DNA from: Vicinamibacteria bacterium
Lineage (GTDB): Bacteria; Acidobacteriota; Vicinamibacteria; Marinacidobacterales; Marinacidobacteraceae
NCBI GenBank assembly: GCA_963422395.1
Contig: OY729431.1
Location: 480,001 to 544,000 of the forward strand
DNA: 64,000 nt
Direction of reading: 5' to 3'
A program made the translations under genes and the position numbers. Positions within the stretch are counted from its first letter, which is position 1. Every line of letters starts with the position of its first letter. This document shows positions 8,988 through 45,584 of the stretch, piece after piece. The notes beneath the pieces are model-generated. The model was not told the origin of the DNA, ran no database searches, and saw only the letters and a list, made by a program, of their open reading frames with translations.

Positions 8988-9812
8988 ATGAAGAAAAAAG
9001 CGACGCGTAAAAAGAAGAAAGTCGCGGCGCGCGCGAGTGTTCATCGCAAGGTGACCCGCAAGAAGGCGACGCGCAAGAAAGCCGCGGCACGGAAGGCGAC
9101 CCGGAAGAAGGTGACCCGCAAGAAAGCCGTGGCGCGGAAGGCGACCCGGAAGAAGGTGACCCGCAAGAAAGCCGCGGCACGGAAGGCGACCCGGAAGAAG
9201 GCGACGCGCAAGAAAGCCGCGGCACGGAAGGCGACAAGGAAGAAAGCGACGCGCAAGAAAGCCGCGGCACGGAAGGCGACCCGGAAGAAAGCGACGCGGA
9301 AGAAGGCGACCCGGAAGAAGGCGACCCGGAAGAAGGCGACCCGGAAGAAGGCGACGCGGAAGAAAGCGACGCGGAAGAAGGCGACCCGGAAGAAAGCGAC
9401 GCGGAAGAAAGCGACCCGGAAGAAAGCGACGCGGAAGAAGGCGACGCGGAAGAAGGCGACCCGGAAGAAAGCGACCCGGAAGAAGGCGACGCGGAAGAAA
9501 GCGACCCGGAAGAAAGTGACCCGGAAGAAGGCGACCCGGAAGAAAGTGACCCGGAAGAAGGCGACCCGGAAGAAGGCCGCGGCTTCGAGTGCGGCTGCGA
9601 CCGCGGAAGAAACGCCTGCGACCGCGGAGGAAACGCCTGCGACCGCGGAGGAAACGCCTGCGACCGCAGAGGAAACGCCTGCGACCGCGGAGGAAACGCC
9701 TGCGACCGCAGAGGAAACGCCTGCGACCGCAGAGGAAACGCCTGCGACCGCAGAGGAATCTGAAGAATCTCCGGCCGCCTCGGCCGCCGTGGCGGGTCCG
9801 GACGGAGGCTGA
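8988..9812 (+). CDS. Histone H1/Hc2-like Lys/Arg-rich repeat protein with acidic C-terminal repeats
   Basis: About 35 KKATR-type pentapeptides followed by 7 ATAEETP heptads. Synonymous third-position variation between repeats supports this frame as coding. Confidence 0.8.
   Translation: MKKKATRKKKKVAARASVHRKVTRKKATRKKAAARKATRKKVTRKKAVARKATRKKVTRKKAAARKATRKKATRKKAAARKATRKKATRKKAAARKATRKKATRKKATRKKATRKKATRKKATRKKATRKKATRKKATRKKATRKKATRKKATRKKATRKKATRKKATRKKATRKKVTRKKATRKKVTRKKATRKKAAASSAAATAEETPATAEETPATAEETPATAEETPATAEETPATAEETPATAEETPATAEESEESPAASAAVAGPDGG
9048..9575 (+). repeat. 15-bp tandem repeat (AAGAA(G/A)GCGAC(C/G)CGG) encoding KKATR
   Basis: Visible directly in the sequence. Confidence 0.95.
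9597..9758 (+). repeat. 21-bp tandem repeat (GCGACCGC(G/A)GAGGAAACGCCT), 7 copies plus a partial, encoding ATAEETP
   Basis: Visible directly in the sequence. Confidence 0.95.
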
Positions 9813-32946: not shown

Positions 32947-34908
32947 GTGCCGCGCCGCGCCGGATCGGCTCCGGTTCGACTCCTGATCGCCAACCGGGGC
33001 GAGATCGCCCGGCGGGTGCTCCGTTCGGCGCGGCGGTCGGGTTTCCAGGTGGGGGTCGTTTCCACGGCTTCCGACCGCGGCGCTCCGATCCGAGCCGAGG
33101 TGGACCGGGTGTTCGAGGTGCCGAACTTCCTCGATGTCGATGCGGTGGTGGCGGCGGCCTCCGACTGGCAAGCCGACCTGCTGCATCCGGGCTATGGGTT
33201 CCTGTCGGAAAACGCGGACTTCGCCGCCGCGGTCGAGAGTGCCGGGATCGGTTTCGTCGGGCCGACTCCGGAGGCGATGCGCAGCCTGGGCGACAAACAG
33301 GAGGCGCGGCGGCTGGCGGTTGCCGCGGAGGTCCCGGTGCTGCCGGCGCTTTCTTCTGCGCACCTCGCCGCGGTTCGGGACCCGGCGATGGCGCTGGAAC
33401 GGAGTGGTGTTGGCTTCCCCTGCGCAGTGAAGGCGGCGTTCGGAGGCGGCGGCCTCGGGATCCGGATCGTGCGCCGCCCTGCGGAACTCGACGAAGCGCT
33501 GGCGAAGGCGTCCGCGGAGGCGCGATCGGCCTTCGGCGATGGAACGGTCTATCTCGAGCGCTGGCTGGAACGGGCGCGGCATGTGGAGATCCAGGTCTTC
33601 GGGGACGGGCGGGGCGGCGGGATCCACCTCGGAGAGCGGGAATGCTCGGTCCAGCGCCGTCGGCAGAAACTGGTGGAGTGGTCCCCGGCGTTCGGGATGT
33701 CGGAAGAGCTCCGGCGGCGCTTGGGACAGGCGGCGCTGCGGCTGGTGCGGGAGTGCCGCTACCGGAACGCGGGGACGGTGGAGTTCCTGCTGGACGGCGA
33801 CGGAGCGTTCCACTTCCTCGAAGGGAACGCCCGGCTGCAAGTGGAGCATCCGGTCACCGAAATGGCGTACGGGGTGGATCTGGTGGACGCCCAGCTGTCG
33901 CAGGCGGCGGGAGAGTGGCCCCGATCGCTTCCCGATCCGGTGGATCGACCCGAGGTGTTCGAACCGGCCATTCCCCGGTTCGCCGCCGTCGAAGCCCGGA
34001 TCCTCGCCGAATCCCCTCGCGGCGGCTTCGCTCCGAGCCCCGGACAGGTGCGGCGTTACCGTGAGCCGGCCGGTCAGGGCATCCGGGTGGATTCCGGAAT
34101 CACCGCGGGCACCGTGGTTCCTCCCGGGTACGACTCGCTACTCGCCAAGGGGATCGCCGCGGGCGGAACGATGGCCGAGGCGGCGGAACGGCTTTCGGCG
34201 TGGATCGAGGAGATGGTCGTCCACGGCGTGGATACGAACTTCTCGCTGCTGCTCGCTATCCTCCGGCATCCGGATTTCCTCGCCGGACGGACGCATTCGA
34301 GTTGGGTCGAGGAGAGGGTGGACGAACTCGCAGTCTCGAAGCTGCCGCCGCTCCTCGATGTGCTCTTGCGTCGGGAACGAGTCGCGCAGTCGCTGGCGGA
34401 AGCGGCTTCGGGTCGGTCAGAGAGCCGGGGCGCGCGCTTTTTCCGCTCGGCGGGCGGGAACTGGAAGGCGCCCGCGGCGTTTCCGCAGATCGAGCCGGGA
34501 GACCGGCCAGGAGAGGTGCTGCTCTCCGGCGGAGCGGTCCGGGCGACGGGAGTCCGGGAACCGCTCCGACTCACCGCGACGGAGTTCGGCGGCGGGCGGA
34601 GAGTCGCAGTTTCCGCTTTCGGAGAGACCGTCGTTCTCCCGCTCCGAAGTGCCGGGGAAGAGTCCGATGTTTCCACCCGGGAGCGGGAAGTCCGGGCGCC
34701 TCTCGCCGGTCGGCTGTTGAGCATCCGCACCGACACCGGAAGCCGGGTGGAACGGGGGGAACAGGTCGCCGTCATCGAGTCCATGAAGATGCATTGGCAG
34801 ATCCGTGCCCCGGCGGATGGAGTGCTCGGGGAACCCGCCGCAGCTCCTGGCCAGACGGTGACCGCCGGCGCCCTCCTGTTCGCAGTCGCTCCGCCGTCAG
34901 CCGGCTGA
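32947..34908 (+). CDS. Biotin carboxylase / biotin carrier alpha subunit (LiuD/AtuF-like)
   Basis: LLIANRGEIA, HPGYGFLSEN, RHVEIQ, ERECSVQRRRQK, RLQVEHPVTE, YDSLLAK, ESMKM biotinylation motif. Start uncertain (32923 or 32947). Confidence 0.92.
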   Translation: MPRRAGSAPVRLLIANRGEIARRVLRSARRSGFQVGVVSTASDRGAPIRAEVDRVFEVPNFLDVDAVVAAASDWQADLLHPGYGFLSENADFAAAVESAGIGFVGPTPEAMRSLGDKQEARRLAVAAEVPVLPALSSAHLAAVRDPAMALERSGVGFPCAVKAAFGGGGLGIRIVRRPAELDEALAKASAEARSAFGDGTVYLERWLERARHVEIQVFGDGRGGGIHLGERECSVQRRRQKLVEWSPAFGMSEELRRRLGQAALRLVRECRYRNAGTVEFLLDGDGAFHFLEGNARLQVEHPVTEMAYGVDLVDAQLSQAAGEWPRSLPDPVDRPEVFEPAIPRFAAVEARILAESPRGGFAPSPGQVRRYREPAGQGIRVDSGITAGTVVPPGYDSLLAKGIAAGGTMAEAAERLSAWIEEMVVHGVDTNFSLLLAILRHPDFLAGRTHSSWVEERVDELAVSKLPPLLDVLLRRERVAQSLAEAASGRSESRGARFFRSAGGNWKAPAAFPQIEPGDRPGEVLLSGGAVRATGVREPLRLTATEFGGGRRVAVSAFGETVVLPLRSAGEESDVSTREREVRAPLAGRLLSIRTDTGSRVERGEQVAVIESMKMHWQIRAPADGVLGEPAAAPGQTVTAGALLFAVAPPSAG

Positions 34909-35822
34909 GCTGCGGCGCCGGAGGATCGGTTGGCGGCGATCCGGGCGGCGAAGGTGCAGCTGGAAGCGGAGCAGCGGGCGCGGGACGAGGCGCGGGGGCG
35001 GGTCCCCGGACAGACCCACAGTCCGGGGAACGGTCGGCGCTACCAGCGCGCGCATGGGGAGCCGAAGGCGGAAGCGCAGGGGAACTTCACCGACCCCGAG
35101 AGCCGGATCATGAAGACGAGCGCCGAGGGGTTCCAGCAGTGCTACAACGCGCAGATGGCGGTGGACGGAGAGAACCAGCTGGTGGTGTCGAACCAGCTGA
35201 CGGCGAATGCGGGCGACCAGGGGCAGCTGCCGGCGCTGCTGGACCGGGTGCGAGAAGAGTTGGGCGCGGTGCCGGCGGTGGTGATGGCTGATGCCGGATA
35301 CTGCAACGAGCGGGACCTGGCGCTGCTGGAGACCCGCGGGATAGACGGGTATGTCGCCGTCGGACGGGAAGGGCGGAAGCGGGCGGCGGGCACTCCGCGA
35401 AGCATCACCCGGCGACCCGCCGGATGAGAGAAAAACTGGCGGCTCACGCCGGGCGGAAGATCTACGCGGCGCGGAAGTGGCTGTCCGAGGCGCCCCACGG
35501 GTGGATCAAGGAGGTGATGGGGTTCCGGCGGTTCAGCTTCCGGGGGCTGCGCAAGGCGCAAGGAGAGTGGGACCTGGTCTGCCTGGCGTTGAACCTGCGA
35601 CGGCTCCCGGGGTTGCTGGCAGCGTAAACGCCTGCCCCGCCCCGCCCTGGCCCCATCAACCCGCCCAATGGCCCTCCGGAGCGCCTTCCCGAACTCCCCT
35701 CCCACCCGAAAACTGCGCGATCCCGCCCCATGACTCCGATCACGCGCTCCCGAACCCCCGAATCTCCCACGCGCTCCCGAACCCCCGATCCGCCCCAACC
35801 TTTCTGCAGCGCAGACTCCTAG
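34902..35822 (+). mobile_element. Truncated IS1182-family insertion sequence (3' half of transposase, frameshifted, with right end)
   Basis: PAELRRREDRL...NFTDPESRIMK...QCYNAQ...MADAGY, then a second frame YAARKWLSEAPHGWIKEVMGFRRFSFRGLRKAQGEWDLVCLALNLRRL. Ends with CAGACTCCTAG, resembling IS5/IS1182-type ends. 5' half is absent. Confidence 0.85.
35741..35788 (+). repeat. 21-bp direct repeat CACGCGCTCCCGAACCCCCGA x2 (27-bp period) in the IS 3' region
   Basis: Copies at 35741 and 35768. Confidence 0.85.
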
Positions 35823-36010
35823 TAGCCTGTGGATGAAGTGGCGCGAGCCCCAAGATCGGTGAGGCGCGCGGCGGACAAGGCGCGATTCGGGAGGCATACC
35901 GGGAGTATTCCGACGGAATCGCAACGCCGAGCGAAGCGGTTCAGGCGGGGCCCCCACCGGGAGAACTGGGCATCGCCGACCTTTGGTCGTGTGACTTTGT
36001 CCACGGGCTG

Positions 36011-39000
36011 CTAAGCCTCCATTCCCGCTCGCTCGCGCTGAGCCGCCCTTTGGAGCAGACGCTCCCAGGCTGCGGCGGAACCGCCGATACCGACGGTCAG
36101 GACCGCAGCGATGAGCAGGACTGGCCATCGTTTTCCCGGATCGGCGCCGGCGGCGAGGAGCGCCGCGATCACGGCGGGTTCCGGGTTGTTCCTGCCGGCC
36201 TCGTGGAGGGGAGTGTTGCCGGCTTCGTCGCGGCTGTTGGGATCGGCACCGGCGGCGATCAGCGCTGCGATCACGGCGGGGTTCGGGTTGTTCCAGGCGG
36301 CTTGGTGGAGGGGGGTGTTGCCATGCACGTCGCGGCTGTCGGGGTCGGCGCCGGCGGCGAGGAGTGCTGTGATCACGGCGGGTTTCGGGTTGCCCCAGGC
36401 GGTCTGGTGGAGCGGCGTGCTGCCCTGCGCGTCGCGTGCCTCGGGGTCGGCACCGGCGGCGATCAGCGCCTCGATCATCGCAGAGGCCCCGGTCGTCGCC
36501 GCCGCTTGGAGGGGGGTGCTGCCGTTCGCGTCGCGGCTGTTGGGATCGGCGCCGGCGGCGAGGAGTGCTGTGATCACGGCGGGTTCCGGGTTGTTCCTGC
36601 CGGCCTCGTGGAGGGGAGTGTTGCCGGCTTCGTCGCGGCTGTTGGGATCGGCACCGGCGGCGATCAGCGCTGCGATCACGGCGGGGTTCGGGTTGTTCCA
36701 GGCGGCTTGGTGGAGGGGGGTGTTGCCATGCACGTCGCGGCTGTCGGGGTCGGCGCCGGCGGCGAGGAGTGCTGTGATCACGGCAGGTTTCGGGTTGCCC
36801 CAGGCGGTCTGGTGGAGCGGCGTGCTGCCCTGCGCGTCGCGTGCCTCGGGGTCGGCACCGGCGGCGATCAGCGCCTCGATCATCGCAGAGGCCCCGGTCG
36901 TCGCCGCCGCTTGGAGGGGGGTGCTGCCGTTCGCGTCGCGGCTGTCGGGATCGGCGCCGGCGGCGAGGAGTGCTGTGATCACGGCGGGGTTCGGGTTGTT
37001 CTTGACGGCCTCGTGGAGGGGGGTGTTGCCGGCTTCGTCGCGGCTGTCGGGGTCGGCGCCGGCGGCGGCGAGCGCCGCGATCACGGCGGGGTTCGGGTTG
37101 TTCGAGGCGGCCTGATGGAGGGGGGTGTTGCCGTCCGCGTCGCGGCTGTCGGGGTCGGCGCCGGCGGCGGCGAGCGCCGCGAGCACGGCGGGTTCCGGGT
37201 TGTTCCAGGCGGCTTGCTGCAGCGGGGTGCTGCCGTTCGCGTCGCGGCTGTTGGGATCGGCGCCGGCGGCGGCGAGCGCTGCGATCACGGCGGGTTCCGG
37301 GTTGTTCTTGACGGCCTCGTGGAGGGGGGTGTTGCCGTTCGCGTCGCGGCTGTCGGGGTCGGCGCCGGCGGCGGCGAGCGCTGTGATCACAGCGGGGTCC
37401 GGGTTGTTCGAGGCGGCCTGATGGAGGGGGGTGTTGCCGTTCGCGTCGCGGCTGTCGGGGTCGGCGCCGGCGGCGGCGAGCGCTGCGATCACGGCGGGTT
37501 CCGGGTTGTTCTTGACGGCCTCGTGGAGGGGGGTGTTGCCGGCTTCGTCGCGGCTGTCGGGGTCGGCGCCGGCGGCGGCGAGCGCCGCGATCACGGCGGG
37601 GTTCGGGTTGTTCGAGGCGGCCTGATGGAGGGGGGTGTTGCCGTCCGCGTCGCGGCTGTCGGGGTCGGCGCCGGCGGCGGTGAGCGCTGCGATCACGGCG
37701 GGGTCCGGGTTGCTCCAGGCGGTCTGGTGGAGCAGCGTGCTGCCGTTCGCGTCGCGTGCCTCGGGGTCGGCGCCGGCGGCGACGAGCGCCGCGAGCACGG
37801 CGGGGTTCGGGTTGTTCCAGGCGGCTCGCTGCAGCGGGGTGCTGCCGTTCGCGTCGCGGCTGTCGGGGTCGGCGCCGGCGGCGGCGAGCGCTGTGATCAC
37901 AGCGGGGTCCGGGTTGTTCGAGGCGGCCTGATGGAGGGGGGTGTTGCCGTTCGCGTCGCGGCTGTCGGGGTCGGCGCCGGCGGCGGCGAGCGCTGCGATC
38001 ACGGCGGGTTCCGGGTTGTTCTTGACGGCCTCGTGGAGGGGGGTGTTGCCGGCTTCGTCGCGGCTGTCGGGGTCGGCGCCGGCGGCGGCGAGCGCTGCGA
38101 TCACGGCGGGGTTCGGGTTGTTCGAGGCGGCCTGATGGAGGGGGGTGTTGCCGTCCGCGTCGCGGCTGTCGGGGTCGGCGCCGGCGGCGGTGAGCGCTGC
38201 GATCACGGCGGGGTCCGGGTTGCTCCAGGCGGTCTGGTGGAGCAGCGTGCTGCCGTTCGCGTCGCGTGCCTCGGGGTCGGCGCCGGCGGCGACGAGCGCC
38301 GCGAGCACGGCGGGGTTCGGGTTGTTCCAGGCGGCTCGCTGCAGCGGGGTGCTGCCGTTCGCGTCGCGGCTGTCGGGATCGGCGCCGGCGGCGGCGAGCG
38401 CTGCGATCACAGCGGGGTCCGGGTTGTTCGAGGCGGCCTGATGGAGGGGGGTGTTGCCGTTCGCGTCGCGGCTGTCGGGGTCGGCGCCGGCGGCGGCGAG
38501 CGCTGTGATCACAGCGGGGTCCGGGTTGTTCGAGGCGGCCTGATGGAGGGGGGTGTTGCCGTTCGCGTCGCGGCTGTCGGGGTCGGCGCCGGCGGCGGCG
38601 AGCGCTGCGATCACGGCGGGTTCCGGGTTGCTCCAGGCGGCCTGATGGAGGGGGGTGTCGCCGTTCGCGTCGCGGCTGTCGGGATCGGCGCCGGCGGCGG
38701 CGAGCGCTGCGATCACGGCGGGTTCCGGGTTGTTCCTGACGGCCTGATGGAGCGGGGTGCTGCCGTTCGCGTCGCGGCTGTCGGGATCGGCGCCGGCGGC
38801 GGCGAGCGCTGCGATCACGGCGGGTTCCGGGTTGTTCTTGACGGCCTCGTGGAGGGGGGTGTTGCCGGCTTCGTCGCGGCTGTCGGGGTCGGCGCCGGCG
38901 GCGGCGAGCGCTGCGATCACGGCGGGGTTCGGGTTGTTCGAGGCGGCCTGATGGAGGGGGGTGTTGCCGTCCGCGTCGCGGCTGTCGGGGTCGGCGCCGG

Positions 39001-42000
39001 CGGCGGCGAGCGCTGCGATCACGGCGGGGTCCGGGTTGCTCCAGGCGGTCTGGTGGAGCAGCGTGCTGCCGTTCGCGTCGCGTGCCTCGGGGTCGGCGCC
39101 GGCGGCGACGAGCGCCGCGAGCACGGCGGGGTCCGGGTTGTTCCAGGCGGCTCGCTGCAGCGGGGTGCTGCCGTTCGCGTCGCGGCTGTCGGGGTCGGCG
39201 CCGGCGGCGGCGAGCGCTGCGATCACGGCGGGTTCCGGGTTGTTCTTGACGGCCTCGTGGAGGGGGGTGTTGCCGGCTTCGTCGCGGCTGTCGGGGTCGG
39301 CGCCGGCGGCGGCGAGCGCTGCGATCACGGCGGGGTTCGGGTTGTTCGAGGCGGCCTGATGGAGGGGGGTGTTGCCGTCCGCGTCGCGGCTGTCGGGGTC
39401 GGCGCCGGCGGCGGCGAGCGCTGCGATCACGGCGGGGTCCGGGTTGCTCCAGGCGGTCTGGTGGAGCAGCGTGCTGCCGTTCGCGTCGCGTGCCTCGGGG
39501 TCGGCGCCGGCGGCGGCGAGCGCCGCGAGCACGGCGGGGTTCGGGTTGTTCCAGGCGGCTCGCTGCAGCGGGGTGCTGCCGTTCGCGTCGCGGCTGTCGG
39601 GATCGGCGCCGGCGGCGGCGAGCGCTGCGATCACGGCGGGTTCCGGGTTGTTCCTGACGGCCTGGTGGAGGGGGGTGTTGCCGTTCGCGTCGCGGCTGTC
39701 GGGGTCGGCGCCGGCGGCGGCGAGCGCTGTGATCACAGCGGGGTCCGGGTTGTTCGAGGCGGCCTGATGGAGGGGGGTGTTGCCGTTCGCGTCGCGGCTG
39801 TCGGGGTCGGCGCCGGCGGCGGCGAGCGCTGCGATCACGGCGGGTTCCGGGTTGCTCCAGGCGGCCTGATGGAGGGGGGTGTCGCCGTTCGCGTCGCGGC
39901 TGTCGGGGTCGGCGCCGGCGGCGGCGAGCGCTGCGATCACGGCGGGGTTCGGGTTGTTCGAGGCGGCCTGATGGAGCGGGGTGCTGCCGTTCGCGTCGCG
40001 GCTGTCGGGATCGGCGCCGGCGGCGGCGAGCGCTGCGATCACGGCGGGTTCCGGGTTGTTCTTGACGGCCTCGTGGAGGGGGGTGTTGCCGGCTTCGTCG
40101 CGGCTGTCGGGGTCGGCGCCGGCGGCGGCGAGCGCTGCGATCACGGCGGGGTTCGGGTTGTTCGAGGCGGCCTGGTGGAGGGGGGTGTTGCCGTCCGCGT
40201 CGCGGCTGTCGGGGTCGGCGCCGGCGGCGGCGAGCGCTGCGATCACGGCGGGGTCCGGGTTGCTCCAGGCGGTCTGGTGGAGCAGCGTGCTGCCGTTCGC
40301 GTCGCGTGCCTCGGGGTCGGCGCCGGCGGCGACGAGCGCTGCGAGCACGGCGGGGTTCGGGTTGTTCCTGACGGCCTGGTGGAGGGGGGTGTTGCCGTTC
40401 GCGTCGCGGCTGTCGGGATCGGCGCCGGCGGCGGCGAGCGCTGCGATCACGGTGGGTTCCGGGTTGTTCCTGACGGCCTCGTGGAGGGGGGTGTTGCCGG
40501 CTTCGTCGCGGCTGTCGGGGTTGGCGCCGGCGGCGGCGAGCGCTGCGATCACGGCGGGGTTCGGGTTGTTCGAGGCGGCCTGATGGAGGGGGGTGTTGCC
40601 GTCCGCGTCGCGGCTGTCGGGGTCGGCGCCGGCGGCGGCGAGCGCTGCGATCACGGCGGGGTCCGGGTTGCTCCAGGCGGTCTGGTGGAGCAGCGTGCTG
40701 CCGTTCGCGTCGCGTGCCTCGGGGTCGGCGCCGGCGGCGGCGAGCGTCGCGAGCACGGCGGGGTTCGGGTTGTTCCAGGCGGCTCGCTGCAGCGGGGTGC
40801 TGCCGTTCGCGTCGCGGCTGTCGGGATCGGCGCCGGCGGCGGCGAGCGCTGCGATCACGGCGGGTTCCGGGTTGTTCGAGGCGGCCTGGTGGAGGGGGGT
40901 GTTGCCGTTCGCGTCGCGGCTGTCGGGGTCGGCGCCGGCGGCGGCGAGCGCTGTGATCACAGCGGGGTCCGGGTTGTTCGAGGCGGCCTGATGGAGGGGG
41001 GTGTTGCCGTTCGCGTCGCGGCTGTCGGGGTCGGCGCCGGCGGCGGCGAGCGCTGTGATCACAGCGGGGTCCGGGTTGTTCCTGACGGCCTGGTGGAGGG
41101 GGGTGTTGCCGTTCGCGTCGCGGCTGTCGGGGTCGGCGCCGGCGGCGGCGAGCGCTGCGATCACGGCGGGTTCCGGGTTGTTCTTGACGGCCTCGTGGAG
41201 GGGGGTGTTGCCGGCTTCGTCGCGGCTGTCGGGGTCGGCGCCGGCGGCGGCGAGCGCTGCGATCACGGCGGGGTTCGGGTTGTTCGAGGCGGCCTGATGG
41301 AGGGGGGTGTTGCCGTCCGCGTCGCGGCTGTCGGGGTCGGCGCCGGCGGCGGTGAGCGCTGCGATCACGGCGGGGTCCGGGTTGCTCCAGGCGGTCTGGT
41401 GGAGCAGCGTGCTGCCGTTCGCGTCGCGTGCCTCGGGGTCGGCGCCGGCGGCGACGAGCGCCGCGAGCACGGCGGGGTTCGGGTTGTTCCAGGCGGCTCG
41501 CTGCAGCGGGGTGCTGCCGTTCGCGTCGCGGCTGTCGGGATCGGCGCCGGCGGCGGCGAGCGCTGCGATCACGGCGGGTTCCGGGTTGTTCCTGACGGCC
41601 TGGTGGAGGGGGGTGTTGCCGTTCGCGTCGCGGCTGTCGGGGTCGGCGCCGGCGGCGGCGAGCGCTGTGATCACAGCGGGGTCCGGGTTGTTCGAGGCGG
41701 CCTGATGGAGGGGGGTGTTGCCGTTCGCGTCGCGGCTGTCGGGGTCGGCGCCGGCGGCGGCGAGCGCTGCGATCACGGCGGGTTCCGGGTTGTTCTTGAC
41801 GGCCTCGTGGAGGGGGGTGTTGCCGGCTTCGTCGCGGCTGTCGGGGTCGGCGCCGGCGGCGGCGAGCGCTGCGATCACGGCGGGGTTCGGGTTGTTCGAG
41901 GCGGCCTGATGGAGGGGGGTGTTGCCGTCCGCGTCGCGGCTGTCGGGGTCGGCGCCGGCGGCGGTGAGCGCTGCGATCACGGCGGGGTCCGGGTTGCTCC

Positions 42001-43464
42001 AGGCGGTCTGGTGGAGCAGCGTGCTGCCGTTCGCGTCGCGTGCCTCGGGGTCGGCGCCGGCGGCGACGAGCGCCGCGAGCACGGCGGGGTTCGGGTTGTT
42101 CCAGGCGGCTCGCTGCAGCGGGGTGCTGCCGTTCGCGTCGCGGCTGTCGGGATCGGCGCCGGCGGCGGCGAGCGCTGCGATCACAGCGGGGTCCGGGTTG
42201 TTCGAGGCGGCCTGATGGAGGGGGGTGTTGCCGTTCGCGTCGCGGCTGTCGGGGTCGGCGCCGGCGGCGGCGAGCGCTGTGATCACAGCGGGGTCCGGGT
42301 TGTTCGAGGCGGCCTGATGGAGGGGGGTGTTGCCGTTCGCGTCGCGGCTGTCGGGGTCGGCGCCGGCGGCGGCGAGCGCTGCGATCACGGCGGGGTCCGG
42401 GTTGCTCCAGGCGGCCTGATGGAGGGGGGTGTCGCCGTTCGCGTCGCGGCTGTCGGGATCGGCGCCGGCGGCGGCGAGCGCTGCGATCACGGCGGGGTTC
42501 GGGTTGTTCGAGGCGGCCTGATAGAGCGGGGTGCTGCCGGCTCTGTCGCGTGCCTCGGGGTCGGCGCCGGCGGCGGCGAGCGCTGCGATCACGGCGGGTT
42601 CCGGGTTGTTCTTGACGGCCTCGTGGAGGGGGGTGTTGCCGGCTTCGTCGCGGCTGTCGGGGTCGGCGCCGGCGGCGGCGAGCGCTGCGATCACGGCGGG
42701 GTTCGGGTTGTTCGAGGCGGCCTGATGGAGGGGGGTGTTGCCGTCCGCGTCGCGGCTGTCGGGGTCGGCGCCGGCGGCGGCGAGCGCTGCGATCACGGCG
42801 GGGTCCGGGTTGCTCCAGGCGGTCTGGTGGAGCAGCGTGCTGCCGTTCGCGTCGCGTGCCTCGGGGTCGGCGCCGGCGGCGGCGAGCGCCGCGAGCACGG
42901 CGGGGTTCGGGTTGTTCTTGACGGCCTCGTGGAGGGGGGTGTTGCCGGCTTCGTCGCGGCTGTCGGGGTCGGCGCCGGCGGCGGCGAGCGCTGCGATCAC
43001 GGCGGGGTTCGGGTTGTTCGAGGCGGCCTGATGGAGGGGGGTGTTGCCGTCCGCGTCGCGGCTGTCGGGGTCGGCGCCGGCGGCGGCGAGCGCTGCGATC
43101 ACGGCGGGGTCCGGGTTGCTCCAGGCGGTCTGGTGGAGCAGCGTGCTGCCGTTCGCGTCGCGTGCCTCGGGGTCGGCGCCGGCGGCGACGAGCGCCGCGA
43201 GCACGGCGGGGTTCGGGTGGAGCAGCGTGCTGCCGTGTTCCAGGCGGCTCGCTGCAGGGGGGTGCTGCCGTTCGCGTCGCGTGCCTCGGGGTCGGCGCCG
43301 GCGGCGAGACAGGCGGCCACTTCGTCCGGGGTGGCCCTCTCGAAGAAAGCCCAGGTGTTCCACGTGCTGCAGTCCAAAGTCTGCCTCTCGGCCGCTGCCG
43401 AACAGACTGTCACCATGAGGAACGAGGCCGCCGCAGCCAGAAAGCTCGTAGGAACCCGGATCAT
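36011..43464 (-). CDS. Giant ankyrin-repeat protein (~70 repeats) with N-terminal signal peptide and C-terminal TM anchor; frameshifted by a 17-bp insertion at 43219-43235
   Basis: 34-aa repeats DxxGxTPLHxAxxNNPxPAVIAALAAAGADPDSR. Signal and cap (MIRVPTSFLAAAASFLM...CSTWNTWAFFERATPDEVAACL) are in ORF 43099..43470; the array and WPVLLIAAVLTVGIGG are in ORF 36011..43363. Confidence 0.9.
36130..43305 (-). repeat. 102-bp tandem repeat array, ~70 copies, with higher-order blocks
   Basis: 69 repeats counted in the 2450-aa ORF plus one disrupted repeat. Two units near the C-terminus are 99 bp. Confidence 0.97.
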
Positions 43465-43617
43465 CACCACACCATTATCGGTGCACTTGGGGAAGCCCCG
43501 CTTTCACGGATTCGTCGAGACGCGCCGAATACCGGGGATGTTGCGATGTGAGACGCCTTTTCTGCGGGCTGCGCCCCGAGAAGACTTCCGACCCTTCGTC
43601 GCTTGCCGTGCGGGCCG

Positions 43618-44658
43618 TCAGGGCTCGCCGCCGGCGAGTTGGCGGAAGGCCGCGGCGATCTCTTCCGGGCTGCTGCCGGCGCCGAGGGCGGCGGTGAGGA
43701 GCATCCGCGCTTTCAGGCCGTCGAGGTCTTCTCCGGAGACCACGCCGAGCTCCTGCTGGGATCCGGAGAGGACGACTCGCCCGCTTCCGGTGCGAGTCGT
43801 GAAGACCACTGCGGCCCCTGCTTCGCGCACCGCACCCACCGCCTCCATCACCGGCGGCGGAGCGTTGCCCCGTCCAAAGACTTCGACCACGACCCCGCGC
43901 ATTCCTCTCTCGGCAGCGGCGCGGATGGCTGCTGCGCCGCCGCCGGCAGTGAGACGGACGAGTTCCACGCGAGGCTCGATCTCCTCGGCCGGAAGATGGA
44001 TCCGGCGGCGCGGAGTGTGGAAGAGCAGGATTTCGCCCGCGTCCACCGCGCCCACCGGCCCGGTGTCCGGGGAGGCGAAGGCGTGGAGGGCGACAGAGTG
44101 GGTCTTTTCGACCTCCCGGGCGGCGTGGATCTGCCCGTTCAGCACCACCAGCACTCCGAGGTTCCGCGTCCGGGACGAGCCCGCTACCCGGATCGCGTCC
44201 AGCAGGTTGCGGGGGCCGTCGGTGTCCGGGGAGCGGGGCGCCCGCTGCGCGGCGGCGAAGACCACCGGGCGGCCGGCGGGAAGGAGCAGATCGAGCAGAA
44301 ACGCGGTCTCCTCCAGCGAGTCGGTGCCGTGGCTCACCACGATTCCCGCGAGCTCGGGGCGGCCCCCGAAGACCTCTGCGATCCGGTTGGCGAGGCGGAA
44401 CTGCAGCTCGGGATGCATGCGGGAGCTCCCGATCCGAGAGAAGTCTTCGGTGGTGAGCTGTGCCATCCTGCCGAGGTCTGGCAGCCGGGCGCGGAGATCG
44501 GCGGCTTCGAGCGGTCCGCTGGCTCCGCCGGAGATCGTGCCGCCGGTGCCGATCAGGTGGACCTCCGGCAGGGGCTGGGGTCGAGCGGCGGGCAGAGTCG
44601 GGAGCAAGAGTGTCAGGAGGGCCGCGACGGGGGCGGGCCCGAGAGATAGGAACTGCAT
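43618..44658 (-). CDS. L-asparaginase (type II-like, secreted)
   Basis: IGTGGTI, HGTDSLEET, AAQR, DGPRNL, KTHS, FGRGN; signal-like N-terminus. Confidence 0.92.
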   Translation of the reverse strand: MQFLSLGPAPVAALLTLLLPTLPAARPQPLPEVHLIGTGGTISGGASGPLEAADLRARLPDLGRMAQLTTEDFSRIGSSRMHPELQFRLANRIAEVFGGRPELAGIVVSHGTDSLEETAFLLDLLLPAGRPVVFAAAQRAPRSPDTDGPRNLLDAIRVAGSSRTRNLGVLVVLNGQIHAAREVEKTHSVALHAFASPDTGPVGAVDAGEILLFHTPRRRIHLPAEEIEPRVELVRLTAGGGAAAIRAAAERGMRGVVVEVFGRGNAPPPVMEAVGAVREAGAAVVFTTRTGSGRVVLSGSQQELGVVSGEDLDGLKARMLLTAALGAGSSPEEIAAAFRQLAGGEP

Positions 44659-44762
44659 GAGGCGCTCTTTATACCGGGCCTTTCCTGCTCGGAGCTCCGA
44701 TGCTTCGGGCTACCGCAGTTTGCCGCGGAGCGGCCCCCGGAGCAGCCCGCCCGATTCCGCCG

Positions 44763-45584
44763 TCAGGAACCTCCGGTCCCGATGTGGATGGCGCCGTTCA
44801 CGGTGCGTACCCGGCACTCGCCTCCCCCCTCGTCCAACTGGACGGTTTTTCGGCGCCGGGTCGGGATATCCAGCTCCTCGGCGCCCGCGAGCTCCATGAC
44901 CACCCGCCCATTCACTGCCTGCGCGTCCACGCGTCCGTTCGCTTCGGAATCGAGGGTCAGCAGTACCTTTCCGTTCACGGTGCGGAAGGAGTGCTCGTCA
45001 CCCGGGCCGAAGCGGTCGAACGCGCACTCGATCCGCCCGTTCACGGTCTGGGCGTTCACGCTGCCGCGCTGCCCGGTGAGCAGGAGCGAGCCGTTCACCG
45101 TCTGGATGGCGACTTCGCCCGAAATGCCGGAGACCTCCACCGAGCCATTCACCGTTTCGATTCTCAGGTCGGCGCGCTCTGGCAGACGGATCGCGTAGTG
45201 GACGGCGCCGTGTTTCCCTCCCCACATCCCGCGCCGTTTCGGCCGCCGGGTGCGGACTTGAAGGCCCATGGAGGTCTGCTGGATCTCAACGGAGACCTCG
45301 TCGAGAGCGGAGTCGTCGGCTCCGACCTTTCGGGCGGTGATCTCCGCTTGGGAGCGGTCCCAAGCGGCGATCGAGACTCGTCCGTTCACATTCCTGAGAT
45401 CGAGCAGATCGCCGGAGTGGAACTCTTCCGTGAAGATCTCGGTTGCCTCGGCGTTCGGCTCCCAGGGGAGGGCGGTCGCGCACCCGGACGCCCCGGCGAG
45501 ACCGGGGACGAGAAGCAGGGCAGGCAGGCGATGGGGCAGCCCGGAACCGCGGGCTGCATTTCGAATTGCCGTCAGGCCGACCAT
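44763..45584 (-). CDS. DUF4097 beta-strand repeat lipoprotein
   Basis: Six [T/N/A]VNG repeats; possible lipobox ASGC. Confidence 0.8.
   Translation of the reverse strand: MVGLTAIRNAARGSGLPHRLPALLLVPGLAGASGCATALPWEPNAEATEIFTEEFHSGDLLDLRNVNGRVSIAAWDRSQAEITARKVGADDSALDEVSVEIQQTSMGLQVRTRRPKRRGMWGGKHGAVHYAIRLPERADLRIETVNGSVEVSGISGEVAIQTVNGSLLLTGQRGSVNAQTVNGRIECAFDRFGPGDEHSFRTVNGKVLLTLDSEANGRVDAQAVNGRVVMELAGAEELDIPTRRRKTVQLDEGGGECRVRTVNGAIHIGTGGS

What the first reader, a model, noticed from the sequence alone, without database searches (positions are those of the whole stretch)
36011..43464. Giant cell-surface ankyrin array with an almost invariant scaffold and a small set of variants at the binding face
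Seen: ~70 tandem 34-aa (102-bp) repeats, nearly identical at DNA level. Variation is concentrated in the beta-hairpin tip (DAN/DAD/DEA/DRA-G-N/S/D) and the end of helix 1 (HQAAS, HEAVK, HQAVR, QRAAW, HQTAW, HQAAW, YQAAS). There is a predicted signal peptide and a C-terminal TM helix followed by basic residues. Known: these positions form the target-binding face of ankyrins, the face randomised in DARPins. Canonical ankyrin repeats are 33 aa, and most ankyrin proteins have far fewer, more divergent repeats. Expanded ankyrin proteins in sponge symbionts are reported to modulate phagocytosis. Inference: a membrane-tethered extracellular solenoid whose specificity could be set by repeat order and rewritten by recombination between units. 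The resemblance to TALE 34-aa repeats is an analogy, not homology.
Basis: partly seen in the sequence, partly recalled or inferred. Interest (0 to 1): 0.85.

Follow-up and report, generated by a model that had tools for sequence, protein, structure and literature searches.

The report
Giant near-identical ankyrin array, frameshifted
An uncultured marine acidobacterium carries a gene made of about 70 almost identical ankyrin repeats that differ mostly on the usual ankyrin binding face, but in this assembly a 17-base insertion cuts the export signal off from the repeats, so it may be switched off.

Summary
The array is real. It has 69.5 copies of a 102-bp unit (36141-43218) and lies on the minus strand. 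It encodes 69 whole ankyrin units (67 of 34 aa, 2 of 33 aa) plus one split first unit, a C-terminal membrane helix and a basic tail. The signal peptide and a cysteine-bearing N-cap lie in another frame. A 17-nt insertion (43219-43235) copied from the neighbouring unit breaks the gene.

Unit order is not free. It is an A-B-C core, then 0-5 spacer units, then E. Exact DNA repeats reach 778 bp, and rare units are exact mosaics of common ones. This fits growth by unequal recombination.

Amino-acid variation is enriched on the hairpin and inner helix, but it is not confined there. It does not clearly exceed silent change (pN/pS about 1 against 0.6 elsewhere).

No orthologue exists at this locus in 19 related loci. 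No retrieved homologue is as self-similar. A genome of another genus in the same family has its own large 33-aa array, under much clearer selection.

Closest known are the highly internally conserved ankyrin repeats of fungal NLRs and the ankyrin "eukaryotic-like proteins" of sponge symbionts.

This scan noted similar 34-aa arrays before on other DNA (e1-2413009, e1-566055).

Verdict: new variant of a known kind, moderately interesting.

The parts
43237..43470 (-). Signal peptide (about 27 aa: R5, hydrophobic core, AAA-E) and cysteine-bearing N-terminal cap (C..WNT..FF..A.....V..CL.AGADP). This is the first 78 codons of ORF 43099-43470.
   Evidence: Weak Pfam Ank_4 match at residues 49-78. The same cap motif occurs in 78 of 289 retrieved homologues and in a paralogue at genome 1889462-1891207.
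43219..43235 (-). 17-nt insertion that breaks the reading frame inside the first (E-type) unit. Its sequence is identical to a piece of the next (A-type) unit.
   Evidence: Alignment of the junction with two intact E-to-A unit boundaries. Translations.
43175..43293 (-). First, split ankyrin unit (E-type, 102 + 17 nt).
36953..43174 (-). Core array: units 1-61, all 34 aa. Order: ABC ABC lgddE ABC dfE ABC fddE ABm f ABC ngdfE ABC E ABC ogddE ABC dE ABC dpq BC.
   Evidence: Mean pairwise DNA identity 0.894. Longest exact internal repeat is 778 bp at an offset of 37 units.
36143..36952 (-). Older C-terminal block: units 62-69. These are two 405-nt copies (98.8% identical) of a four-unit set h-i-j-k, which corresponds to E-A-B-C. 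Unit h has 33 aa.
36065..36127 (-). Predicted C-terminal transmembrane helix.
   Evidence: Kyte-Doolittle(19) 2.02, the only segment above 1.6 in the ORF. No similar tail elsewhere in the genome.
36011..36064 (-). Basic 17-aa tail (ERLLQRAAQRERAGMEA) and TAG stop.
35819..36013 (.). One copy of a dispersed repeat of about 195 bp whose last bases include the ankyrin gene's stop codon.
   Evidence: 40 copies of at least 120 bp in the genome.
34900..35822 (+). IS-like element with a DDE transposase fragment. It lies between the ankyrin gene and the biotin carboxylase gene.
   Evidence: Pfam DDE_Tnp_1 on ORF 34930-35427. Three other copies in the genome at 94-99% identity.

Best explanation
This is a lineage-specific ankyrin-repeat gene of an uncultured marine Acidobacteriota bacterium (Vicinamibacteria-like). 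It has been blown up recently to about 70 units by unequal homologous recombination.

Shown:
- The units fold as a canonical ankyrin stack, with one extra residue in the turn between the two helices.
- The array is built from an older four-unit founder (E-A-B-C, still visible as units 62-69). The founder was amplified as blocks of 3-8 units: an A-B-C core, then 0-5 spacer units, then E.
- Rare unit types are exact or near-exact two-parent mosaics of common ones, with crossovers between hairpin and helix 1.
- Differences between units fall preferentially on the hairpin tip and inner helix.

Inferred:
- The intact gene product would be exported by the Sec pathway. Its N-cap would be stabilised by a disulfide. 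It would stay tethered to the inner membrane by its C-terminal helix, with the solenoid in the periplasm unless it is released.
- About 11 tandem copies of the same A-B-C surface would make a multivalent binder, most likely for a partner from a host or the environment, as proposed for ankyrin 'eukaryotic-like proteins' of symbionts.
- In this assembly a 17-nt templated insertion separates the export signal from the array. The gene is therefore probably inactive, or only recently inactivated, in the sequenced population.
For: - Array, frame and units.
- Ankyrin identity: Pfam. AlphaFold2 pLDDT 85.7, pTM 0.75. Foldseek gives 463 PDB matches at E <= 0.001, led by DARPins, ankyrin-1/B and MIB1. 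phmmer against PDB gives ankyrin-1 at 1.2e-82 and a DARPin at 6.5e-81, with a one-residue gap in the helix-helix turn.
- Block structure: 35 distinct DNA units of 69 and 17 face signatures. Exact repeats of 778, 479, 479, 363 and 338 bp lie at offsets of 37, 31, 6, 33 and 19 units.
- Mosaics: units 32 and 58 are 0-mismatch two-parent mosaics, against 4 mismatches to the best single parent. Units 8, 16, 33 and 35 have 2 mismatches against 6.
- Face enrichment: the six DARPin-type positions hold 39% of the entropy against 18% expected. pN is 0.213 at the seven face codons and 0.071 elsewhere, reached by 106 of 20000 random codon sets. My count of distinct codon changes from the table gives 10 non-synonymous and 0 synonymous at face codons, against 20 and 9 elsewhere (Fisher p = 0.047).
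- Export design: hydrophobic N-terminus and C-terminal helix. 184 of 289 retrieved homologues are signal-peptide-like, and 78 of 289 carry the Cys-pair cap motif.
- Lineage-specific: 0 of 19 related loci around the neighbouring asparaginase have an ankyrin gene. In 4 of them asparaginase is followed within 3-4 kb by biotin carboxylase and AtuA, as in the window but without the ankyrin gene and IS. The best identity in 40 relatives is 55%. The best in the protein collection is 57-58%.
- Not assembly inflation, weakly: in two runs the repeat-derived unitigs have a summed k-mer depth 14 and 32 times that of the single-copy flank.
- Taxon: orthologues of the neighbouring gene at 73-79% identity lie in MAGs titled Vicinamibacteria, Candidatus Marinacidobacterium or Acidobacteria.
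Against: - The 17-nt insertion means the assembled gene cannot make the exported protein.
- pN/pS outside the face is only 0.60-0.64 and at the face about 1.0. Selection on the scaffold is therefore weak or too recent to see, and positive selection is not shown.
- The gene sits against an IS-like element and a dispersed repeat. It has no orthologue, as expected also for junk that expanded.
- No RNA run holds the locus, so expression is unknown.
- 0 of 289 retrieved homologues combine a signal peptide with a C-terminal helix, so the topology has no precedent among them.
- Host association was not shown. The run labels are coded, and the record titles do not name a host.
- Logan contigs break at the first repeat (43292 and 43278). 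Neither the array length, the unit order nor the insertion could be checked on reads.
Confidence: 0.55

Rival explanations
1. It is a dead or dying gene. On this view a neutral, runaway expansion of a recombination-prone repeat is already frameshifted, and the pattern of variation is simply inherited from four or five founder units that differed where all ankyrin repeats differ.
For: - Frameshift by a 17-nt insertion.
- Scaffold pN/pS of 0.6, and face pN/pS not above 1.
- Neighbouring IS-like element and dispersed repeat.
- No orthologue.
- The open frame through the array is not informative, because the opposite strand is open too.
- The founder types E, A, B and C already differ at the face in the older units 62-69.
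Against: - All 69 units keep lengths of 102 or 99 nt, with no stop or indel other than the one at the 5' end.
- New face combinations arose after the founders, by mosaic recombination.
- A related genome keeps a comparable array under strong scaffold constraint, with pN/pS of 0.05-0.12 and face values of 1.6-3.7. Such arrays can therefore be functional in this family.
Confidence: 0.3
2. It is partly an assembly artefact. On this view the array length, the unit order or the 17-nt insertion were created by the assembler in a repeat it could not resolve.
For: - Near-identical 102-bp units with exact repeats up to 778 bp are hard to assemble.
- The inserted 17 nt are a copy of sequence about 85 nt away.
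- The depth of Logan unitigs over 43240-43279 is below that of the flank in all three runs, although the bins are only partly covered.
Against: - The genome is a single 2.9-Mb contig, which suggests long accurate reads (inference).
- In two runs the repeat unitigs sum to 14 and 32 times the flank depth, the order expected for 10-11 copies of that unit type.
- A related complete genome shows an array of similar size.
Confidence: 0.15
3. It is a programmed diversification or phase-variation device. On this view the cell actively rewrites unit order or face residues (cassette-like recombination or a diversity-generating retroelement), and the frameshift is an OFF state.
For: - Mosaic units show that recombination creates new hairpin/helix combinations.
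- Several variable codons are AAC-derived (AAC/GAC/GCC, AAC/AGC/GAC), as in retroelement targets.
- The insertion is templated from the neighbouring unit.
Against: - No reverse transcriptase was found anywhere in the genome, which is 93.8% complete.
- Other variable codons (TGG/TCG/AAG/AGG, GCG/GAA/AGA) do not fit adenine-specific change.
- There is no simple-sequence tract at the frameshift.
- The order follows a fixed grammar.
- No strain data exist.
Confidence: 0.08
4. It is a structural tether or spring rather than a binder. On this view a very long, acidic ankyrin superhelix anchored in the inner membrane acts as a spacer or elastic element in the cell envelope.
For: - About 70 stacked repeats and a single membrane anchor.
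- The array composition gives 286 acidic against 98 basic residues.
- The 29-repeat NOMPC ankyrin spring is among the sequence matches. Its spring role is recalled, not from a call.
Against: - A pure spacer needs no variation focused on the binding face.
- There is no conserved partner gene nearby; the neighbours are metabolic.
- There is no orthologue in relatives.
Confidence: 0.08

Closest known systems
Highly internally conserved ankyrin (and WD40, TPR) repeats of fungal NOD-like receptors (Dyrka et al. 2014, PMC4986451; section 13 and passages read)
   Same: - The repeats of one gene are near-identical.
- Repeat length is 33-34 aa.
- Variable positions lie on the inner helix and hairpin of the concave face.
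- Evolution is by repeat shuffling and concerted evolution.
   Different: - Those arrays sit behind a NACHT/NB-ARC NTPase and an effector domain in cytoplasmic receptors, and had up to 21 repeats in the cases described.
- This one has about 70 repeats, a signal peptide, an N-cap with a Cys pair, a C-terminal membrane helix and no NTPase.
- Positive selection and repeat-number polymorphism are shown there, not here.
Ankyrin-repeat 'eukaryotic-like proteins' of sponge and other symbionts (PMC13747020, passages read; it cites Nguyen et al. 2014 and Jahn et al. 2019, which I did not read)
   Same: Bacterial ankyrin proteins, often with export signals, enriched in host-associated bacteria. This genome has at least seven other ankyrin genes.
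   Different: - Described examples are short, with diverged repeats.
- None that I saw is a 70-unit near-identical array with a membrane anchor.
- Neither an effect on phagocytosis nor sponge origin was tested here.
Designed ankyrin repeat proteins, DARPins (PMC8683736, passages read; PDB 6mol, 6mok)
   Same: - Consensus-like self-compatible repeats with a fixed framework.
- Variation at surface positions that form the paratope.
- Best sequence and fold matches.
   Different: - DARPin repeats are 33 aa, and a domain has 2-3 internal repeats plus caps.
- Here the unit has 34 aa, with one extra residue in the helix-helix turn.
- Variation also touches positions 22 and 30.
- The DARPin randomised position numbers (2, 3, 5, 13, 14, 33) are recalled, not taken from a call.
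Ankyrin arrays of a related genome (handle G005, same family, other genus; locus L011)
   Same: - A 99-bp ankyrin tandem array, which TRF reports as 69.3 copies over 6.9 kb.
- Near-identical units (self-identity 0.82 and 0.58).
- Variation at unit positions 6, 7, 8, 10, 15, 18 and 19.
   Different: - The unit is 33 aa with a different sequence.
- The array is split into two genes, one fused to a protein kinase, with no signal peptide seen.
- Silent divergence is much greater (pS 0.2-0.25), with an almost invariant scaffold (pN/pS 0.05-0.12) and face pN/pS of 1.6-3.7.
PRDM9 zinc-finger arrays and TALE repeats (Persi et al. 2016, PMC5120217, passages read for PRDM9; TALE recalled)
   Same: Tandem near-identical repeats in which a few contact residues per unit vary, and unequal recombination reshuffles units.
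   Different: The folds and targets (DNA) are different. These are analogies only.

Membership tests
Ankyrin repeat superfamily (Pfam PF00023 / PF12796) | Profile match above the curated threshold | tested here: met
   Ank 213 bits (cut-off 21.1) and Ank_2 206.8 bits (cut-off 27.3) on the last 396 aa. Similar scores on the first 454 aa.
Ankyrin repeat superfamily (Pfam PF00023 / PF12796) | Helix-turn-helix plus hairpin units stacked into a solenoid | tested here: met
   The AlphaFold2 model of 8 units has pLDDT 85.7, with two helices per unit (12-19 and 23-31). Foldseek top matches are DARPins, ankyrin-1/B and MIB1, with TM up to 0.67.
Ankyrin repeat superfamily (Pfam PF00023 / PF12796) | 33-residue period | tested here: not met
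   67 of 69 spacings are 34 aa. The extra residue falls in the helix-helix turn. The 34-aa spacing is common among retrieved homologues, so this is a tolerated variant.
Highly internally conserved repeat arrays of NLR/STAND receptors | Repeats of one protein highly similar to each other (85% over at least 100 aa in Dyrka et al.) | tested here: met
   Exact DNA repeats up to 778 bp. Protein self-identity at period 34 is 0.76 overall. Units of the same class are 97-100% identical.
Highly internally conserved repeat arrays of NLR/STAND receptors | Variation and positive selection at the binding face | tested here: inconclusive
   Enrichment of non-synonymous change at the face was found (106 of 20000 permutations). 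However, pN/pS there is about 1.0, or 2.5 on only six codons with few events.
Highly internally conserved repeat arrays of NLR/STAND receptors | NACHT/NB-ARC NTPase and effector domain in front of the repeats | tested here: not met
   The N-terminus is a signal peptide and an ankyrin cap. Only ankyrin families matched.
Highly internally conserved repeat arrays of NLR/STAND receptors | Repeat-number polymorphism between strains | not testable with these tools
   Logan contigs end at the first repeat. No near-identical fragment or locus was found elsewhere.
Symbiont ankyrin 'eukaryotic-like proteins' that alter phagocytosis | Encoded by a host-associated (sponge) symbiont | not tested
   Run labels are coded. 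Related record titles name marine Acidobacteriota MAGs but no host.
Symbiont ankyrin 'eukaryotic-like proteins' that alter phagocytosis | Exported, and acts on host cells | not testable with these tools
   The signal peptide is present but out of frame. There is no functional assay.
TALE repeats | 34-aa TALE helical hairpin with a repeat-variable di-residue that binds DNA | tested here: not met
   Only the period is shared. Sequence and fold are ankyrin.
C-terminal sorting signals (PEP-CTERM, LPXTG and similar) | Signature motif, then a helix, then a short basic cluster, recognised by curated models | tested here: not met
   No such NCBIfam model matched the last 145 aa at E <= 1. Only sub-threshold ankyrin matches appeared. 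The tail after the helix is 17 aa.
Diversity-generating retroelement targets | Reverse transcriptase and a template repeat | tested here: not met
   No RVT_1 match in the genome, which is 93.8% complete.

The most novel reading that the evidence does not exclude
Marine, probably animal-associated, Vicinamibacteria keep giant, highly internally conserved ankyrin arrays as evolvable multivalent binders. Recombination among units homogenises the scaffold. It also keeps producing new hairpin/helix combinations on the binding face. This would be a bacterial counterpart of fungal NLR repeat arrays and PRDM9. It would have arisen independently in at least two genera: an exported, membrane-tethered 34-aa form here and a cytoplasmic, kinase-linked 33-aa form in a relative. 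Short-read metagenomes would have hidden it. The frameshift here would then be one transient state of a fast-turnover locus.
Probability: 0.25. Interest if true: 0.75.

Novelty: new variant of a known kind. Interest (0 to 1): 0.5.

Why it matters
- Ankyrin proteins are the best-known candidates for how symbionts talk to animal hosts, yet their targets and evolution are poorly known.
- Arrays like this collapse in short-read assemblies, so their size and internal order have been invisible.
- If the array is functional, it offers about 11 tandem copies of a defined three-repeat surface, plus natural mosaics. That makes it a ready-made set of constructs for finding the ligand.
- Together with the relative's array, it would show that the 'conserved scaffold, variable face, recombining repeats' mode of receptor evolution known from fungi also operates in bacteria outside NLR-type proteins.
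- If it is a relic, it still documents how fast a 7-kb coding repeat can arise and break.

Tried and rejected
- **Expression.** No RNA holder was listed among 18 runs.
- **Reads.** Read laying on 43120-44300 in four runs. The Hi-C raw reads (about 1 in 100 read) laid nothing. Logan contigs from the flank stop at 43292 (two runs) and 43278 (one run). The insertion, array length and order therefore stay unchecked.
- **Strain or orthologue comparison.**
  - The protein collection gave at most 57% identity (longer class, best 120 of 2180 listed) and 58% (shorter class, best 120 of 3536 listed). Short near-identical fragments could hide below the listed rows.
  - An exact 30-nt N-cap word found 0 metagenome contigs.
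  - The N-terminal protein found 36 metagenome loci, none above 58% over more than a fragment.
  - Viral contigs gave 7 pattern matches and 0 relatives.
- **Synteny.** 0 of 19 related loci carry an ankyrin gene beside the asparaginase.
- **Other large arrays in relatives.** I ran TRF on 21 ankyrin-rich loci that I chose from 12 genomes. Only L011 has more than 6 copies. L009, L130 and L131 have 2.6-5.4 copies.
- **Sorting signal.** None found.
- **Retroelement.** None found.
- **Rfam.** No family in the window.
- **Promoter and terminator scan.** 0 promoter-like sites, and 2 terminator-like sites against 8.6 expected. Uninformative.
- **Lipoprotein reading of the signal.** Rejected by eye, because V precedes the Cys.
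- **Programmed ribosomal frameshift across the 17-nt insert.** I saw no slippery motif. Not tested further.
- **Gemmatimonadota origin.** This was my first guess from named homologues. I rejected it in favour of Acidobacteriota from the neighbouring gene's orthologues.
- **Literature.** 'Marinacidobacter' is in 0 papers. I found no paper describing a bacterial ankyrin array of this size among the listings. Supplements were not seen.

Full report
**What is there**

Tandem Repeats Finder reports a single array at 36141-43218, with period 102, 69.5 copies, 87% matches and 1% indels. Both strands are open across it: 36011-43363 on the minus strand (2450 aa) and 36050-44899 on the plus strand (2949 aa). 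Only the minus-strand product is ankyrin. Pfam Ank and Ank_2 score more than 200 bits on either end of it. The first 400 residues of the plus-strand frame match no family.

The minus-strand protein splits at GA|DP boundaries into 69 units, 67 of 34 aa and 2 of 33 aa. After them comes DPGKR, then a 21-residue hydrophobic helix, then a 17-residue basic tail. That helix is the only segment of the ORF above the usual hydropathy threshold (2.02; next best 1.28).

The array is the highest-scoring tandem repeat of the genome (10225 against 2074 for the next). The genome is a single 2.91-Mb contig with 68.4% G+C.

**The 5' end is broken**

The signal-peptide-like N-terminus has R5, a hydrophobic core and an AAA-E site. 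It is followed by an ankyrin N-cap with two cysteines (C..WNT..FF...V..CL.AGADP). Both lie in a different ORF, 43099-43470.

I aligned the junction with two intact E-to-A unit boundaries. The junction differs by exactly 17 extra bases at 43219-43235, and these are identical to a piece of the next unit. The start of the main ORF is the same DNA as the signal region, read out of frame.

As assembled, translation from the signal peptide stops after 123 codons, and the array has no export signal of its own. I could not check the insertion on reads. In three runs that hold the flank, Logan contigs stop at 43292 or 43278, where the repeat begins. The one raw-read run laid nothing.

In two runs the repeat unitigs sum to 14 and 32 times the flank depth. 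That is the order expected for a unit type present 10-11 times. It is only weak support for the copy number.

**Anatomy of the array**

I classified units by hairpin and helix-1 residues, which gives 17 signatures. The order reads ABC ABC lgddE ABC dfE ABC fddE ABm f ABC ngdfE ABC E ABC ogddE ABC dE ABC dpq BC hijk hijk.
- A is always followed by B.
- B is always followed by C (or its one-residue variant m).
- E is followed by A in all but the last case.

The last eight units are two 98.8%-identical copies of a more diverged four-unit set. That set corresponds to E, A, B and C, so it looks like the founder.

There are 35 distinct DNA units among the 69. The mean pairwise DNA identity of the 61 core units is 0.894. 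Exact repeats of 778, 479, 479, 363 and 338 bp lie at offsets of 37, 31, 6, 33 and 19 units.

Rare unit types are mosaics of common ones. Units 32 and 58 are reproduced with 0 mismatches by two parents with one crossover between hairpin and helix 1, against 4 mismatches for the best single parent. Units 8, 16, 33 and 35 have 2 mismatches against 6.

The array therefore grew and diversified by unequal and intra-unit homologous recombination.

**Where the variation lies**

The AlphaFold2 model of units 4-11 is confident (pLDDT 85.7). It places helix 1 at unit positions 12-19 and helix 2 at 23-31. Foldseek and phmmer put DARPins and ankyrin-1/B on top. The alignment to a DARPin puts the extra 34th residue in the helix-helix turn.

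Entropy per position is highest at 18, 22, 8 and 30, then 15, 10, 7 and 17. The hairpin holds 23% and helix 1 holds 40%, so together 63% of the entropy falls in 14 of 34 positions. The six DARPin-type positions hold 39% against 18% expected. Their numbering is recalled, not taken from a call.

At codon level, pN/pS over all pairs of distinct core units is:

| Codon set | pN/pS |
|---|---|
| all 34 codons | 0.85 |
| six DARPin-type codons | 2.47 |
| remaining 28 codons | 0.60 |

I also used a seven-codon face defined independently from the relative's array (6, 7, 8, 10, 15, 18, 19). There pN is 0.213 and pS is 0.197. Elsewhere pN is 0.071 and pS is 0.112. Only 106 of 20000 random seven-codon sets reach this pN excess.

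The concentration on the binding face is therefore real. The ratio to silent change is about 1, the events are few and not independent, and the scaffold ratio of about 0.6 shows only mild constraint. This is the generic ankyrin pattern, sharpened by recent amplification. It is not proof of diversifying selection.

**Context**

The neighbours are metabolic: an asparaginase upstream on the same strand, an S58 peptidase, and biotin carboxylase and AtuA on the other side. An IS-like element with a DDE transposase fragment lies between the ankyrin stop and the biotin carboxylase gene (34900-35822; three other copies in the genome). So does one copy of a dispersed repeat of about 195 bp (35819-36013; 40 copies of at least 120 bp). 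The end of that repeat includes the TAG stop.

Orthologues of the asparaginase at 73-79% identity lie in MAGs titled Vicinamibacteria bacterium, Candidatus Marinacidobacterium sp. or Acidobacteria bacterium. The organism is therefore an Acidobacteriota of that marine group. My earlier guess of Gemmatimonadota, from named homologues of the N-cap, was wrong.

None of 19 related loci has an ankyrin gene within 10 kb of the asparaginase. In four more distant ones the asparaginase is followed within 3-4 kb by biotin carboxylase and AtuA. The ankyrin gene with its mobile-element neighbours therefore looks inserted here.

All 41 genomes searched have ankyrin matches. These are this genome and 40 relatives, one of which (G033) is flagged unpublished and used only in this tally. 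The best identity to eight of our units is 55%. The genome itself has at least seven other ankyrin genes, one with the same N-cap.

**Comparison with other ankyrin proteins**

Among 289 homologues retrieved in three searches:
- none has a period self-identity of 0.5 or more (ours is 0.76);
- 184 look signal-peptide-bearing;
- 78 carry the Cys-pair cap motif near the N-terminus;
- 2 have a C-terminal hydrophobic helix, and none has both a signal and such a helix.

The 34-aa spacing is the commonest one in many of them, so it is not a peculiarity of this gene. No sorting-signal model matches the C-terminus. No reverse transcriptase is found in the genome.

**A second array in the family**

One relative of another genus (handle G005, locus L011) has a 99-bp ankyrin array that TRF reports as 69.3 copies over 6.9 kb. 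It lies in two adjacent genes. One has 32 units (self-identity 0.82). The other has a protein kinase followed by 18-20 units.

There the scaffold is invariant in amino acids despite much silent divergence (pS 0.21-0.25; scaffold pN/pS 0.05 and 0.12). Positions 6, 7, 8, 10, 15, 18 and 19 carry up to seven residues each (pN/pS 1.64 and 3.73).

This is a much cleaner case of 'fixed scaffold, variable face'. It shows that such arrays can be maintained by selection in this family.

I chose 21 ankyrin-rich loci from 12 relatives. Only this one has more than six tandem copies, and three others have 2.6-5.4 copies.

**How it probably works**

Shown: an ankyrin solenoid gene built by block amplification, with face-biased differences and mosaic units, now interrupted.

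Inferred:
- The intact form is exported by Sec.
- The two cap cysteines suggest a disulfide, and hence an oxidising compartment.
- The C-terminal helix with its basic tail would keep it in the inner membrane with the repeats in the periplasm. 'Cell-surface' is therefore not supported for a two-membrane bacterium unless the protein is released.
- Because the same A-B-C triplet recurs 11 times, I read the array as many copies of one binding module, giving avidity for a repeated or polymeric partner. I do not read it as a code written in unit order.

The partner is unknown. A host factor is plausible by analogy with symbiont ankyrin proteins (PMC13747020, passages read), but the host association itself was not shown here.

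**What is known already**

The combination of near-identical repeats, variation on the concave face and reshuffling is described for ANK, TPR and WD40 repeats of fungal NLRs (Dyrka et al. 2014, PMC4986451; section 13 and passages read). Young, highly repetitive WD40 proteins are described in prokaryotes (Hu et al. 2017, PMC5587647; abstract read). Accelerated divergence between repeats of one protein, with PRDM9 as the positive-selection example, is in Persi et al. 2016 (PMC5120217; passages read).

Earlier notes of this scan report similar young 34-residue ankyrin repeats in a Bdellovibrio-like bacterium and a short-repeat array in a picoalga. They pointed me to the first two papers above.

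What is new here:
- the scale (about 70 units);
- the architecture (signal peptide, Cys-pair cap, membrane anchor, no NTPase);
- the bacterial lineage;
- the independent second array in a sister genus.

I found no paper describing such a bacterial array in the listings.

**Verdict**

The feature is real and striking, and it is a new variant of a known kind. Its present state is probably non-functional, and its function is unproven. Interest 0.5.

Noticed in passing
window 35819-36013: A dispersed repeat of about 195 bp has 40 copies of at least 120 bp in the 2.9-Mb genome, on both strands. Here its end supplies or overlaps the TAG stop of the ankyrin gene. Another copy abuts the end of a second ankyrin gene at genome 2010975-2011169. 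It may be a MITE that targets stop-codon-like sites.
   Followed up: partly
window 34900-35822: An IS-like element with a DDE_Tnp_1 transposase fragment split over two frames. Three other copies in the genome are 94-99% identical.
   Followed up: partly
L011:3367-10294 (handle G005): A related genome carries a 99-bp ankyrin array, which TRF reports as 69.3 copies, in two genes. One gene is fused to a protein kinase. The scaffold is invariant (pN/pS 0.05-0.12) and seven face positions are hypervariable (pN/pS 1.6-3.7). Both ORFs end abruptly inside a repeat, so frameshifts may occur there too.
   Followed up: partly
window 8988-9812 (+): An ORF of 274 aa made of about 40 ATRKK/VTRKK pentapeptides, followed by eight acidic TAEETPA heptads. 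The underlying tandem repeats are 15/30/45 bp and 21 bp. This resembles a histone-H1-like basic protein. The AT skew of this stretch is +0.43.
   Followed up: no
genome 1889462-1891207 (-), outside the window: A paralogous ankyrin gene with a signal peptide uses the same Cys-pair N-cap motif twice. The motif recurs inside many homologues from MAGs (78 of 289 near the N-terminus). It looks like an uncurated cap module of exported bacterial ankyrin domains.
   Followed up: partly
window 36001-44000: The array has extreme strand asymmetry on the plus strand (GC skew +0.16 to +0.27, AT skew -0.28 to -0.52) and 74-76% G+C, against 68% for the genome. This is a consequence of the unit's own composition. 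It also leaves a 2949-aa open frame on the non-coding strand with no family match.
   Followed up: yes
genome 751335-753977 and 760917-762854, outside the window: Two ankyrin genes with near-identical N-terminal halves, both ending in ...NN(H/N)xCVGC. These are the twin operons already noted by this scan (e1-1204702).
   Followed up: no
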